A DNA stretch of 64,000 bases from Eledone cirrhosa (GCA_964016885.1 OZ024750.1:30504001-30568000); one strand, 5' to 3'; counted from the stretch's first letter, positions 27,201 through 48,200 are shown. Notes: generated by a model not told the origin, from the letters alone. A program made the numbers and translations.

Positions 27201-30200
27201 AGGCGGCTGGGCCTTCGGAAATAGTTGCTGAAGATTATTAACCCATCATTGATTGTCCCAAATGCTAATTGGTTCGTAACTTTTAATAACCGGTTCAACT
27301 GCTTTATGCACTTAATTGATAAGCTTATTCGCTTTCAAGCCACGTTTACCAGTATGTAACTTTTCATAGCAAATGAATAAACCCGAGCAACGCCAGGCTA
27401 AACTGCTAGTATATATATAGTTTTAATATAGAAGAGCTTCTACAGGACTAGAACTGTTTCATTCGTGAGAAATCATCAGGAAGCTGGCTGTCCAAGTAAA
27501 TGGTAGTATTTATGTCTTTCCTTATCTGGAGGTAGGAGAGGGTGGGGATTGGGATGGGTGTAGGTCATTGGTTGAAGGATTTAAAGAAAGGGGATTCATT
27601 AAAAGCTAATCATACATATATATATACATACATACATATATATATACATACATATATATATACATACATATATATATACATATATATATATATATAAATA
27701 TATATATATATGTGTGCATGTATGTATATATATATATATATATATATATATATATATATATATATATATATATAAAATTCAATTCAATTAAATCAGAAAT
27801 CAATAAATACCTGTGCATTGATTTTCTGTGCATGTTAACCCACCATTAGTACATTGACTGGAAAAGGAAGTACAAATAAATGTAGCAGTTAGTTTAATAT
27901 GTTGTCAATAAAAACCACGGCGATATCCAATTTTAGCTGTCTAAATGCCGCTTACTTGCTGCAGTTGCTGCTTACTTCAATGTATGAGGCTATTCCAACA
28001 AATTTACATTCCCCCTTTTTTAGCCGTTAAAAGAAATATAGATTTATTTATTTTTATTTTTATTTTTTTGCGATTTATTTGCCACTGGGGCATAGATTTC
28101 TTTATTTGCCCCTTTTTGTTTGTTTGTTTTTTTGCGATTTATTAGCCTTCTGGGGTCACACACGCCCCCGTAGAAAGTGTGCGACCTTTCTGCCAGGGAG
28201 CACAGAGAGAGAGGGGGGGGGGGGTGCTCCCTTCTTCTCTTACCTGTACAAGCCGATATACAGAGATGGCCCACTTACACGGGGCATTATTGCTACTTTC
28301 ACCCATCTTTCATGGAATTGGCTGGGACTGAGTGTCTTTTTCGGGTGAAAGTAGCAATAATGGCCCGTGTAAGTGGGCCATCTCTCTATATCGGCTTGTA
28401 CAGGTAAGAGAAGAAGGGAGCACTCCCCCCTCTCTGTACTCCCTGGCAGAAAGGTCGCACACTTTCTACGGGGGGTGACCCCAAAAGGCTAATAAATCGC
28501 AAAAAAACAAACAAACAAAAAAGGGGCAAATAAAGAAATCTATGCCCCAGTGGCAAATAAATCGCAAAAAAAAAAAAAAAAAAAAAAAAATCTATATTTC
28601 TTTTAACGACTAAAAAAAGGGGGGAATGTAAATTTGTTGGAATAGCCTCATACATTGAAGTAAGCAGCAACTGCAGCAAGTAAGCGGCATTTAGACAGCT
28701 AAAATTGGATATCGCCAAAACCACAAATATAACTGAAATATATAAGACGATTGTTTAACCATTTAGCATTCACATTAGTCTGTATTTACTTTGTATGTTC
28801 GTGGTAAAGGCTTCACCTCACATAATATTGAATCTATGAGATTTTTGTATCAATTATTTTGAGAAGAATACCTTAACACTGTATGAGGGGCTGGTTAGGG
28901 CTGGTTTGAACAGAAAGAGGTGAGAGAATTTTGGCCGGATATAGCTGGTTTAAATGCTAAAGGGTTAATAAAACAATATAAAATATATTCTTAACACACA
29001 TGGAAAAGCTGTGAGTGTTGGCTTGCTTAACAATTATTATAGTGAAAATCAAGGACACGGTGTATTGTGCGATTGAGGGAACATGCTTTATGATATTTTC
29101 CTCACTTTTCAAAATCATGTTCATTTAGCACATATCAAATCTGCTGAAGAGGAAGTGGAAAACAAAACGAAAAAGAAAGAGAAACAGAAGATAAAAAGCA
29201 AAAAAAGAGATATATTTTCCATACCAGTCATGGCAATTAATGTGAAGAATGACGCCAGATTCAATTTCGTCACCAGTATGGACAATCTCACTTTCATTGG
29301 ATGCACCTTCAATACCATCACGTTCAACCCAACCAAGTATGTTACCAAGATCATGACCAGTGATCATTTCAATGTAACAAGGATCAATAACACATCTACC
29401 AGGCCCAGATGTTGTGAAGGGTGTTGGTTGTGATGTTGTAAGTTGTGATGTTGTTGGTTGTGATGTTGTTGGTTGTGATGTTGTTGTTGGTTGTGATGTT
29501 GTTGTTGGTTGTGATGTTGTTGTTGGTTGTGATGTTGTTGTTGGTTGCGATGTTGTTGTTGGTTGCGATGTTGTTGTTGGTTGCGATGTTGTTGTTGGTT
29601 GCGATGTTGTTGTTGGCTGTGATGTTGTTGTTGACTGTGATATTGCTGTTGGCTGTGATGTTGTTGGTTGTGATGTCGTTGTTGGTTGTGATGTTGTTGG
29701 TTGTGATGTTGTTGTTGGTTGTGATGTTGTTGGCTGTGATGTTGTTGTTGGTTGTGATGTTGTTGTTGGTTGTGATGTTGTTGTTGGCTGTGATGTTGTT
29801 GGTTGTGATGTTGTTGGTTGTGATGTTGTTGTTGGTTGTGAGGTTGTTGTTGGCTGTGATGTTGTTGGTTGTGATGTTGTTGTTGGTTGCGATGTTGTTG
29901 TTGGCTGTGATGTTGTTGTTGACTGTGATATTGCTGTTGGCTGTGATGTTGTTGGTTGTGATGTCGTTGTTGGCTGTGATGTCGTTGTTGGTTGTGATGT
30001 TGTTGGTTGTGATGTTGTTGGTTGTGATGTTGTTGTTGGTTGTGAGGTTGTTGTTGGCTGTGATGTTGTTGTTGGTTGTGATGTTGTTGTTGGCTGTGAT
30101 GTTGTTGTTGGCTGTGATGTTGTTGTTGGTTGTGATGTTGTTGTTGGCTGTGATGTTGTTGTTGGTTGTGATGTTGTTGGTTGTGATGTTGTTGTTGGTT

Positions 30201-45200: not shown

Positions 45201-48200
45201 ATGTCGTTGTTGGTTGTGATGTTGTTGTTGGTTGTGATGTTGTTGTTGGTTGTGATGTCGTTTCTGTTTGTGTTGTTTTTGTTCGTGGTGTTGTTGTTGG
45301 TTGTGATGTTGTTGTTGGTTGCGATGTTGTTGTTGGCTGTGATGTTGTTGGTTGTGATGTTGTTGTTGGTTGCGATGTTGTTGTTGGTTGTGATGTTGTT
45401 GTTGACTGTGATATTGCTGTTGGCTGTGATGTTGTTGGTTGTGATATCGTTGTTGGCTGTGATGTCGTTGTTGGCTGTGATGTCGTTGTTGGTTGTGATG
45501 TTGTTGTTTGTGATGTTGTTGGTTGCGATGTTGTTGTTGGCTGTGAGGTTGTTGTTGGTTGTGATGTTGTTGGTTGTGATGTTGTTGGTTGTGATGTTGT
45601 TGTTGGTTGTGATGTCGTTGTTGGTTGTGATGTTGTTGGTTGTGATGATCTTGTTGGTCCTGATGTTGTAGGTTGTGATGTTGTTGTTGGTTGTGATGTT
45701 GTTGTTGGTTGCGATGTTGTTGTTGGTTGTGATGTTGTTATTGGTTGTGATGTTGTTGTTGGTTGCGATGTTGTTGTTGGTTGCGATATTGTTGTTGGTT
45801 GCGATGTTGTTGTTGGTTGTGATGTCGTTGCGGGTTGTGATGTTGTTGTTGGTTGTGAGGTTGTTGTTGGTTGTGATGTCGTTGTGGGTTGTGATGTTGT
45901 TGGTTGTGAGGTTGTTGTTGGCTGCGATGTTGTTGTTGGTTGTGATGTTGTTGGCTGTGATGTTGTTGTTGGTTGTGATGTTGTTGGTTGTGATGTTGTT
46001 GGTTGTGATGTTGTTGTTGACTGTGATATTGCTGTTGGCTGTGATGTTGTTGGTTGTGATGTCGTTGTTGGCTGTGATGTCGTTGTTGGTTGTGATGTTG
46101 TTGTTGGTTGTGATGTTGTTGGCTGTGATGTTGTTGTTGGTTGTGATGTTGTTGGCTGTGATGTTGTTGTTGGTTGTGATGTTGTTGGTTGTGAGGTTGT
46201 TGTTGGTTGTGAGGTTGTTGTTGGTTGTGATGTTGTTGTTGGCTGTGATGTTGTTGGTTGTGATGTTGTTGGTTGTGATGTCGTTGTTGGCTGTGATGTT
46301 GTTGGTTGTGATGATCTTGTTGGTCCTGATGTTGTTGGTTGTGATGTTGTTGTTGGTTGTGATGTTGTTGTTGGTTGCGATGTTGTTGTTGGTTGTGATG
46401 TTGTTGTTGGTTGCGATGTTGTTGGTTGAGATGTTGTTGGTTGTGATGTCGTTGTGGGTTGTGATGTTGTTGGTTGTGAGGTTGTTGTTGGTTGTGATGT
46501 CGTTGTGGGTTGTGATGTTGTTGTTGGTTGTGAGGTTGTTGTTGGCTGTGATGTTGTTGGTTGTGATGTTGTTGTTGGTTGCGATGTTGTTGTTGGCTGT
46601 GATGTTGTTGGTTGTGATGTCGTTGTTGGCTGTGATGTCGTTGTTGGCTGTGATGTTGTTGACTGTGATATTGCTGTTGGCTGTGATGTTGTTGGTTGTG
46701 ATGTCGTTGTTGGTTGTGATGTTGTTGGTTGTGATGTTGTTGTTGGCTGTGATGTTGTTGTTGGCTGTGATGTTGTTGTTGGCTGTGATGTTGTTGTTGG
46801 TTGTGATGTTGTTGTTGGTTGTGATGTTGTTGTTGGCTGTGATGTTGTTGGCTGTGATGTTGTTGTTGGTTGTGATGTTGTTGGTTGTGATGTTGTTGTT
46901 GGTCGTGATGTTGTTGGTTGTGATGTTGTTGGCTGTGATGTTGTTGGTTGTGATGTTGTTGTTGGCTGTGATGTTGTTGGTTGTGATGTCGTTGTTGGTT
47001 GTGATGTTGTTGTTGGCTGTGATTTTGTTGTTGGCTGTGATGTTGTTGTCGGTTGTGATGTTGTTGTTGGTTGTGATGTTGTTGGCTGTGATGTTGTTGT
47101 TGGTTGTGATATTGTTGTCGGTTGTGATGCTGTTGTTGGTTTAGATGTTGTTGGCTGTGTTGTTGTTGTTGGTTGTGATGTCGTTGGTTGTGATGTTGTT
47201 GTTGGTTGTGATGTTGTTGTAGGTAGTGATGTTGTTGTTGGTTGCGATGTTGTTGTCGGTTGTGATGTTGTTGTTGGTTGTGATGTTGTTGTTGGTTGCG
47301 ATGTTGTTGTCGGTTGCGATGTTGTTGTTGGTTGCGATGTTGTTGATACTGATATTGTGTTAGTTGTTGTCACTCCTGTCGTACTTCCAGTGCTGGTTGT
47401 CTCTTCTGGTTTTAGAAAAAAATTGTAAATACATTAAATCTTTAATATATACCCATTTGTTCGTAAGTTGCACTTAATTTTCTAATAATATGTTCAATAT
47501 GCTATATAGTTTTTAATACGTAAAATATCCGATGAATTTAAGTACCATCTGCTGTTACTCCTGTATGCAGGTGACCTAGTTGTAACAGCTTAATCAATAT
47601 CAAATCTTGAGAGTAAATTCCAGATGTTGAATGAAAACCTAATATCAAAATATCTCAGAATGTGTTTAGCTGATATCCTAGTAATTCAGAAAGAAGACAA
47701 AGCACTGATCCTTTCAGGAATATGGCCATGCTCTGAATGTAGAAAATGCCTTGGTAGAAAATCTATATTATGTACAAAATGTATATGCTATGGATACACA
47801 AGAGAAATAGTGGGATCTCAGACAAGGTAACAAATAATATAGAGTTGAACTATGGCAAATGTACAGGAGCAGTAGACAGTAAAACTGTATATGAAACAGG
47901 CTCTATCAAATGCTCCGATGGCTCCCTAGAAATAGTTGACAGTTTCTGCTATCTTGGTGACAAAATTTGTAGTTGAGGAGGGTTTTCAGAAAGTACAGCA
48001 ACCAGGGTGCGAATAGATTTTAAAAAGTTCAGGGAGCTACTATCACTGCTGGCTACAAAGGGTGTTCCCCAGAGTAAAATGCAATGCTGCATCAACGTAA
48101 GTGCTGGGTAGTACATGTGAAATTGTGACAACTGGAAAGAAATGAAGTGAACATGCTCAGATGGATGTATAATAGCTGTATGTAAGAACAACATTGGATT

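What the first reader, a model, noticed from the sequence alone, without database searches (positions are those of the whole stretch)
29225..47405. 18.2-kb single coding exon of ([11 protein letters not shown])n inside a SCO-spondin-type scaffold
Seen: ~6,060 codons with no stop or frameshift, although repeat units vary in length (15 vs 18 nt, always multiples of 3). Composition is almost only T/S/Q/P, with no Cys or N-glycan sites in the repeat. Established: giant PTS exons characterise vertebrate gel-forming mucins, whereas SCO-spondin lacks such a domain. Inference: this is a hybrid mucin/SCO-spondin protein, a candidate component of mucus, egg jelly or cord, or another fibrous secretion. 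Regularly spaced Gln might serve for cross-linking, which is speculative. Automatic annotation would probably miss or split this exon.
Basis: partly seen in the sequence, partly recalled or inferred. Interest (0 to 1): 0.75.

Follow-up and report, generated by a model that had tools for sequence, protein, structure and literature searches.

The report
Giant octopus mucin with SCO-spondin frame
An octopus gene carries an 18,181-base exon of about 1,040 short threonine-rich repeats inside a SCO-spondin-like frame, likely making a very long sugar-coated slime protein; such proteins are known from other molluscs, but a public octopus gene model lacks this part.

Summary
Minus-strand 47405-29225 is one 18,181-nt exon: 6,059 codons, no stop, 63% Ser/Thr. 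It sits in a 48-exon, 8,227-residue model: signal peptide, three VWD-C8-TIL units, one LDLa, five 14-codon mini-exons, the repeat, six TSP1, TIL/VWC, cystine knot. One RNA-like run splices into the exon's 5' end. A frameshift in an upstream exon is an assembly slip. Three paralogs carry unrelated PTS exons (4.2, 5.2, 16.7 kb) in the same slot, and bivalves share the C-terminal cassette. It is most likely a secreted, O-glycosylated, disulfide-polymerising mucin. It is not a new hybrid: SCO-spondin-like invertebrate mucins are in print (PMC4948705, PMC10475054). What differs is the uninterrupted 6,000-residue repeat and a D3 lacking one of MUC2's two linking cysteines. Gln cross-linking is unlikely (973 of 1,023 Gln precede Pro). 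Unshown: tissue, the 3' splice, a full-length transcript, exact array length (read depth hints at 60-75%). The scan noted a different micro-exon mucin elsewhere in this genome, not this gene.

The parts
29225..47405 (-). Giant PTS exon, 18,181 nt, phase 1 to phase 2; ([11 protein letters not shown])n of about 5,970 aa, then a 56-aa Cys-bounded module at 29394-29227
   Evidence: 5' splice in RNA-like run X1
29227..29394 (-). Conserved family module at the exon's 3' end (no Pfam hit); a separate exon in the paralog upstream and in the C5 paralog
52809..52850 (-). 42-nt phase 1-1 Ser/Thr mini-exon, copy nearest the giant exon
57218..57259 (-). Mini-exon copy in the 4.4-kb tandem unit
61655..61696 (-). 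Mini-exon copy. Outside the window (extended coordinates) lie two more copies (66107-66066, 70547-70506) and 27 exons from the ATG at 161930 through EGF and three VWD-C8-TIL units to the LDLa exon 75851-75709
52339..64000 (.). 4.4-kb tandem duplication (about 4.5 copies, 98-99% alike, to extended 72068); each copy carries a mini-exon
27811..27857 (-). Next exon (phase 2 acceptor), completes the Cys module
24370..24528 (-). TSP1 exon
   Evidence: Pfam TSP_1 1e-9
23970..24140 (-). TSP1 exon
   Evidence: Pfam TSP_1 1e-11
20225..20471 (-). TIL exon
   Evidence: Pfam TIL 4e-10
18178..18230 (-). Small Cys exon (phase 2 acceptor)
16106..16181 (-). TSP1, first half
11485..11634 (-). TSP1 second half and Cys module
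11138..11187 (-). Small Cys exon
10520..10690 (-). TSP1 exon
6099..6251 (-). TSP1 exon
3580..3735 (-). TSP1-type exon
   Evidence: tblastn with homologs
2155..2360 (-). TIL exon
1646..1750 (-). VWC-like exon
   Evidence: Pfam VWC 0.013 (below cut-off)
226..286 (-). End of VWC-like module. The last exon (cystine knot and stop) lies just outside the window at G000:C10:30503247-30503551

Best explanation
The 18,181-nt stretch is one spliced coding exon of an octopod gene whose product is likely a secreted gel-forming mucin built on a SCO-spondin-like frame. Shown: exon bounds and frame; a 48-exon model with AG/GT at every junction; a spliced contig entering the exon; three paralogs with different repeats in the same slot; the linking cysteines of the cystine knot and one of the two in D3. 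Inferred: the roughly 3,800 Ser/Thr would be O-glycosylated into a bottle-brush over a micrometre long (length per residue recalled); monomers would join tail to tail through three cystine-knot disulfides as in Norrin, mucins and VWF, and head to head through D3 using only the Cys1088 equivalent; LDLa, TSP1 and TIL modules would add calcium- and matrix-binding sites; the polymer would swell on release as mucus, most plausibly on skin, gill or gut surfaces. The repeat likely grew from ACA-triplet sequence by slippage and unequal crossing-over, with Gln acting as a spacer rather than a cross-link site.
For: Model: 48 of 48 exons in frame, 8,227 aa, one stop at the end, with one base filled as N. 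That base is present in 3 of the 3 runs that cover the place. Run X1 covers the exon up to the acceptor, has no depth in the intron where X2-X4 continue, and its loose end matches the mini-exon 27 of 27 up to a GT donor, in frame; X1 also holds 91% of 54 words from the exon's 3' 876 nt. Skipping this exon alone shifts the frame. Paralogs: 4,203-, 5,199- and 16,662-nt PTS exons with no stops between LDLa and the same C-terminal cassette. Bivalve proteins have PTS directly before the same module (Dreissena 907 aa, Argopecten 460 aa in three stretches). All 11 Norrin Cys align, including C93, C95, C131 (PMC3828517 passages). The D3 C8 exon aligns without gaps to MUC2, keeping Asp1087-Cys1088 (PMC7599080 passages; numbering offset inferred from that dipeptide). 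D3 homodimer of the O. vulgaris homolog scored 0.35 against best control 0.02; pLDDT 84; runs agree in at least 61% of contacts. That mark was reached by 21 of 30 microbial pairs and 0 of 23 singles, and by 17 of 29 eukaryote pairs and 0 of 30 singles; a MUC2 D3 dimer is solved, so the pass may be from memory. Proteins named SCO-spondin and mucin are in octopus skin mucus (PMC11431876, PMC10138644 passages) and spondin-like mucins in limpet and snail mucus (PMC7333891, PMC10475054 passages).
Against: RNA evidence is one run of unrecorded kind and tissue, as contigs only. The junction contig is single (depth 6.8) with 30 letters on the short side, one under the tool's 31-letter bridging rule. 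The 3' junction and a transcript spanning the exon were not seen. Read k-mer depth suggests 29-36 copies where the assembly has 48-49 (hand ratios; the tool warns depth is no copy number), so the length may be allele-specific or partly inflated; exact internal duplications reach 806 nt. D3 lacks the loop with MUC2 Cys1130, and no VWD has the CGLCG motif; the MUC2 Cys1130Ala mutant dimerises only partly (PMC7599080). The modelled interface did not name the Cys1088 equivalent among confident contacts and barely passed the 0.32 mark. A block skip from the phase-2 donor at extended 79089 is in frame, as in the O. vulgaris model. Glycosylation and gel formation are untested. No paper I found ties this gene to mucus; the skin-mucus supplement could not be read.
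Confidence: 0.8

Rival explanations
1. The main product is a compact SCO-spondin-like matrix or fibre protein: splicing jumps from the phase-2 donor after D3 to a phase-2 acceptor after the repeat, and the giant exon is a minor isoform.
For: Phases allow it (79089 to 27857 or 18230). Both O. vulgaris models lack the LDLa-PTS-TSP1x2-TIL block. D3 and GLCG motifs are SCO-spondin-like.
Against: X1 contigs cover the repeat deeply and splice into it. All four paralogs examined keep an open PTS exon. Repeat masking explains the O. vulgaris gap equally well (inference).
Confidence: 0.07
2. Same polymer chemistry, but the product is a specialised adhesive or egg-string cement rather than surface mucus.
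For: The octopus oviducal gland makes a polymerising cement and up-regulates O-glycosylation genes (PMC8976471 passages). A SCO-spondin-like protein is in limpet adhesive mucus (PMC7333891). Four paralogs with different repeats could serve different glands.
Against: PMC8976471 main text has 0 occurrences of 'spondin'. The exon has few charged residues (41 in 6,059). The tissue of X1 is not given.
Confidence: 0.08
3. The regularly spaced Gln are transglutaminase donors that cross-link to the Lys-rich repeat of the neighbouring paralog.
For: Gln every 5-6 residues (1,023); the tandem paralog has 125 Lys in 1,400 aa and 2 Gln. Gln variants are mostly synonymous (270 CAG).
Against: 973 of 1,023 Gln are followed by Pro; in PMC2193762 a Gln before Pro was not modified by tissue transglutaminase, without exception. 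Dense glycans would shield the chain (inference). Mollusc enzymes were not tested.
Confidence: 0.04
4. The stretch is an intronic satellite or an assembly expansion whose frame is open by chance.
For: A second frame is also open for 5,914 codons. A look-alike array lies on C8 without visible splice sites. The assembly has two 1-nt slips within 600 nt of another part of the gene. Read depth is below the assembled copy count.
Against: Spliced RNA-like contig; conserved module inside the exon; phase fit; paralogs; the depth ratio still implies roughly 11-13 kb on average (hand estimate).
Confidence: 0.01

Closest known systems
Invertebrate gel-forming mucins similar to SCO-spondin (Lang et al. 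2016, PMC4948705; passages, section 15 and one supplement part read)
   Same: Three VWD-C8-TIL units, PTS, closeness to SCO-spondin; one Aplysia entry is labelled with LDLa domains in the text layer of Fig. S4.
   Different: 'Octopus' has 0 occurrences in the main text and in the searchable supplement (one file not searched). The paper calls F5/8 and inserted CysD domains typical of lophotrochozoan mucins; neither is in this model, whose PTS is uninterrupted by folded domains for about 5,970 aa.
Vertebrate SCO-spondin (e.g. P0057)
   Same: Order VWD x3, LDLa, TSP1/TIL; short D3 TIL loop (9 of 9 entries with the motif) and no CGLCG; best long relatives in the search.
   Different: 1 LDLa against 13, 6 TSP1 against 24, no F5/8 domain, and a giant PTS that 0 of 10 entries have. 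Orthology unresolved in the tree.
Vertebrate gel-forming mucins MUC2, MUC5AC, MUC5B, MUC6
   Same: Head D1-D3, single large PTS exon, cystine-knot tail, Cys1088 equivalent.
   Different: Exon 18,181 nt against 8,994-13,470 nt for the four human exons (PMC9712336 passages); no Cys1130 loop, no CGLCG, no CysD, no fourth VWD; TSP1 and LDLa present.
Mollusc spondin-like mucus proteins: snail Spondin1 (PMC10475054), limpet P-vulgata_3 and _6 (PMC7333891), bivalve database proteins XP_052247765, XP_069111486, XP_052779568, KAL4226408
   Same: Ser/Thr-rich regions with Cys-rich spondin domains; the bivalve entries share the module-TSP1-TIL tail.
   Different: The bivalve entries examined gave no VWD hit; the published snail and limpet sequences were not aligned here.
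Octopus vulgaris 'mucin-2-like' CAI9718654.1 / CAI9718653.1 and Argonauta GAB1608831.1
   Same: 51-64% identical over head and tail.
   Different: The O. vulgaris models lack LDLa, PTS and three following domains; the Argonauta entry is a C-terminal fragment.
Arthropod hemolectin/hemocytin
   Same: Three N-terminal VWD units of similar BLAST score (339-412 bits).
   Different: 3+2 VWD with F5/8 domains (PMC4948705); not seen here.

Membership tests
Gel-forming mucin | Secreted, three N-terminal VWD-C8-TIL units | tested here: met
   Exon model and tblastn; Pfam on the homolog finds 3 VWD; signal peptide judged by eye only
Gel-forming mucin | Large PTS domain | tested here: met
   80% S+T+P over 6,059 aa
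Gel-forming mucin | C-terminal cystine knot with 11 Cys including three interchain Cys | tested here: met
   Aligned to Norrin, E 1e-7; PMC3828517; Pfam Cys_knot 7.5e-4, below cut-off
Gel-forming mucin (MUC2/MUC5 type) | D3 Cys1088 equivalent | tested here: met
Gel-forming mucin (MUC2/MUC5 type) | D3 Cys1130 loop | tested here: not met
   Loop about 10 residues shorter, no Cys
Gel-forming mucin (MUC2/MUC5 type) | CysD domains within PTS and a fourth VWD | tested here: not met
   No Cys in the repeat; none in the model
Gel-forming mucin | Dense O-glycosylation and gel formation | not testable with these tools
   Needs protein work
SCO-spondin | LDLa domains after three VWD units | tested here: met
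   One LDLa, Pfam 1.8e-7, against 13 in P0057
SCO-spondin | F5/8 type C domain and a long run (over 20) of TSP1 repeats | tested here: not met
   6 TSP1, no F5/8
SCO-spondin | No PTS domain | tested here: not met
   0 of 10 SCO-spondin entries have PTS; this gene does
SCO-spondin | Orthology by D2-D3 phylogeny | tested here: inconclusive
   16 rows, one mucin only; four groups meet in an open fork, long-branch warning
SCO-spondin | Secretion in the nervous system as a fibre | not testable with these tools
   Tissue of run X1 not given
Hemolectin/hemocytin | 3+2 VWD with F5/8 domains | tested here: not met
   PMC4948705 section 15
Invertebrate SCO-spondin-like mucins (Lang 2016) | At least three VWD units, PTS, SCO-spondin-like sequence | tested here: met

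The most novel reading that the evidence does not exclude
Molluscs keep the ancestral SCO-spondin as a mucin with a swappable PTS slot between LDLa and TSP1. In octopods one in-frame splice jump removes the whole 6,000-residue brush, so a single gene would make either a gel-forming mucin or a compact Reissner-fibre-like protein; vertebrate SCO-spondin would be the fixed PTS-less form.
Probability: 0.12. Interest if true: 0.7.

Novelty: new variant of a known kind. Interest (0 to 1): 0.4.

Why it matters
It gives a complete, partly read-checked model of a mollusc mucin family whose database entries seen here are fragments or lack the repeat, and that mucus proteomes may list as 'SCO-spondin'. 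At least four copies in one octopus genome, each with its own repeat chemistry (Gln-, Lys-, Val/Ala- or pure Thr/Pro-rich), offer a natural series for how repeat sequence sets mucus properties. The D3 with one linking cysteine makes the polymerisation of the SCO-spondin lineage testable. The kind of protein is known, and giant PTS exons are the rule for mucins, so surprise is moderate.

Tried and rejected
Selection test by independent events (minimum spanning network of 70 unit types): 27 synonymous: 47 non-synonymous, P=0.12, not significant; only the frequency-weighted pattern supports selection. Absence of stops and frameshifts as proof of coding: rejected as weak. Direct LDLa-to-giant-exon splice: dropped once the RNA loose end showed mini-exons between. 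Pseudogene through the VWD3 frameshift: rejected (X4 does not cover the place). Internal acceptor in the exon: of 350 AG, 61 in the right phase, none with more than 6 T in the tract. Tree for orthology: unresolved. ESM Atlas on the N-terminal part of relative P0015: best score 0.83, under the 0.9 lead level, no structure search. The profile search aimed at the 56-aa module became a whole-P0015 profile, so most of the 150 rows are TSP1-rich noise; 14 of the 146 new proteins scanned hit the module or the cystine knot, and 10 chosen rows were looked up for names. The idea that limpet P-vulgata_3 is a transcript cut at a PTS exon is weakened by its reported stop codon. Earlier-findings look-ups by place and by sequence returned nothing. 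Lang 2007 is not held. Eight paper searches on the family and two on mechanism listed no paper describing this octopod gene or its exon; most listed papers were seen as listing and abstract start only, and subscription journals and unread supplements may hold one.
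Full report
Observation. The minus strand is open from 47433 to 29128; between 47405 and 29225 it has no stop, against 13-936 in the other five frames. An AG precedes 47405 and a GT follows 29225, giving an 18,181-nt exon of 6,059 whole codons. It holds 737 six-residue and 299 five-residue units, mostly TTTSQP and TTSQP, 63% Ser+Thr, with Cys and the only N-glycan sequon after the repeat. 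The open frame alone proves little: a second frame is open for 5,914 codons, intronic arrays in the window have long open frames, and about 0.6 kb of the same unit lies on contig C8 amid triplet repeats with no visible splice sites.

Gene. The window is G000:C10:30504001-30568000. With neighbouring stretches and an Octopus vulgaris homolog found by search, I built a 48-exon model from extended coordinate 161930 to -753. Every junction is AG/GT and in phase; the product is 8,227 residues, about 0.86 MDa before glycans. Order: signal peptide (by eye), EGF, three VWD-C8-TIL units, one LDLa, five 14-codon Ser/Thr mini-exons, the giant exon, a 56-residue Cys module with no Pfam match, two TSP1, TIL, four TSP1, TIL, VWC-like, cystine knot. 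Closest proteins are from Octopus and Argonauta at 51-64% identity, so the animal is an octopod.

Reads. Of 23 runs listed, four hold half or more of the 54 words from the exon's 3' 876 nt; all are from one study and two samples. X1 behaves as RNA: it stops at the 47405 acceptor, where X2-X4 run on through the intron, and its contig continues with 27 letters that match, 27 of 27, a 42-nt mini-exon ending at a GT donor in frame. That mini-exon exists in five copies, one per 4.4-kb tandem unit; whether all five are used is not shown. This is one contig, with 30 letters on the short side, one below the tool's bridging rule. The assembly shows a one-base frameshift in the VWD3 exon; X1, X2 and X3 all carry the missing base and X4 does not cover it. 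Depth ratios of repeat to unique contigs in X2-X4 give 29-36 copies of words present 48-49 times in the assembled region (my ratios). That fits a large array but leaves its exact length open.

Selection. Against the consensus unit, 724 variant sites are synonymous and 186 are not; the six commonest of 36 variant types are all synonymous (about 3 in 10,000 by a post-hoc hand count); no other frame fits as well. A proxy for independent events was not significant.

Family. A paralog 90 kb upstream has the same domain order and a 4,203-nt (STPVITKIP)n exon. A search with the D3 exon gave 8 strong matches of 11 in the genome. I read downstream of two of the six on other contigs: both have LDLa, a PTS exon (16,662 nt on C26; 5,199 nt on C5) and the same tail. 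So even the size is not unique in this genome. Bivalve proteins named mucin-17-like, mucin-2-like, SCO-spondin-like or hypothetical share the tail, several with PTS just before it. The O. vulgaris models omit LDLa, PTS and three following domains, either through annotation or through an in-frame phase-2 skip.

Mechanism. The cystine knot aligns all 11 Norrin cysteines, including the three that link the dimer and are shared with mucins and VWF. The D3 C8 exon aligns without gaps to MUC2 and keeps Asp1087-Cys1088, but the next loop is about ten residues shorter and has no Cys1130 equivalent, as in 9 of 9 SCO-spondins with the motif and unlike the one fish mucin. None of the three VWD has CGLCG, again like SCO-spondins. 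A D3 homodimer of the O. vulgaris homolog scored 0.35 against a best control of 0.02, pLDDT 84, at least 61% of contacts shared; the mark was reached by 21 of 30 microbial pairs and 0 of 23 singles, 17 of 29 eukaryote pairs and 0 of 30 singles, and may reflect the solved MUC2 dimer. I infer tail-to-tail dimers, head-to-head links through one cysteine, and an O-glycosylated brush between them: a gel-forming polymer. Glycosylation, gelation and tissue are untested. Gln cross-linking is unlikely because 973 of 1,023 Gln precede Pro.

Comparison. It works like a gel-forming mucin. It is not a MUC2/MUC5-type member (no Cys1130, CysD or D4) and not a SCO-spondin (1 LDLa, 6 TSP1, no F5/8, PTS present); the tree does not settle orthology. 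It fits the invertebrate mucins that Lang et al. 2016 found similar to SCO-spondin (PMC4948705; passages, section 15, supplement search and one part read) and the spondin-like proteins of snail, limpet and octopus mucus (PMC10475054, PMC7333891, PMC11431876, PMC10138644; passages only). Human gel-forming mucin exons are 9.0-13.5 kb (PMC9712336 passages). Also read as passages: PMC7599080, PMC2193762, PMC3828517, PMC8976471. My ten paper searches listed no description of this octopod family's full architecture.

Verdict. Real feature; new variant of a known kind; interest 0.4. The bold reading, a splice switch between mucin and compact SCO-spondin-like protein, is allowed by the phases but has no read support (0.12).

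Noticed in passing
extended 460916-252516 (L019-L050); PTS exon L033:8120-3918 (extended 292120-287918): Tandem paralog with the same domain order and a Lys-rich (STPVITKIP)n exon of 4,203 nt; its start was not reached.
   Followed up: partly
G000:C26:13540011-13523350 and 13552526-13551897: Paralog with a 16,662-nt Thr/Pro exon and a short partial duplicate of that exon's start upstream.
   Followed up: partly
G000:C5:67479187-67473989 and 67487895-67487236: Paralog with a 5,199-nt PTS exon and a smaller (STTVPPSV)n frame upstream.
   Followed up: partly
G000:C2:395517467, 399921585, 401502623; C26:13862163: Four more D3-type C8 exons; their genes were not read.
   Followed up: no
L051 (G000:C8:12773916-12774567): About 0.6 kb of the same 18-nt unit inside degenerate ACA/CAA triplet repeats, no visible splice sites; suggests the unit can arise from microsatellite.
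   Followed up: partly
window 52339-64000 and beyond to extended 72068: 4.4-kb tandem unit with a mini-exon and retroelement-like fragments (judged by eye); copy number could vary the linker length.
   Followed up: partly
L005:4148 and 4290: Two one-base omissions in the assembly relative to read contigs; the first breaks the VWD3 exon frame and would mislead annotation.
   Followed up: yes
window 11996-15930, 16883-17850, 18313-18742, 5288-5959: Intronic tandem arrays of 41, 39, 53 and 29 bp, some with open frames up to 392 codons.
   Followed up: no
window 27919-28716: About 800-bp imperfect palindrome (90%) in the intron after the giant exon, possibly a MITE.
   Followed up: no
window 4317-5284: Broken reverse-transcriptase (LINE-like) fragments in an intron; family judged by eye.
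   Followed up: no
window about 40060-39945 and about 45290-45255: Two short non-repeat Ser/Thr inserts inside the array, places approximate; exact internal duplications up to 806 nt.
   Followed up: partly
P0116 (Mactra, KAL4226408.1): 6,524-aa bivalve relative whose middle is dozens of roughly 135-aa domains (not scanned against Pfam) alternating with Ser/Thr stretches, ahead of the same tail.
   Followed up: no
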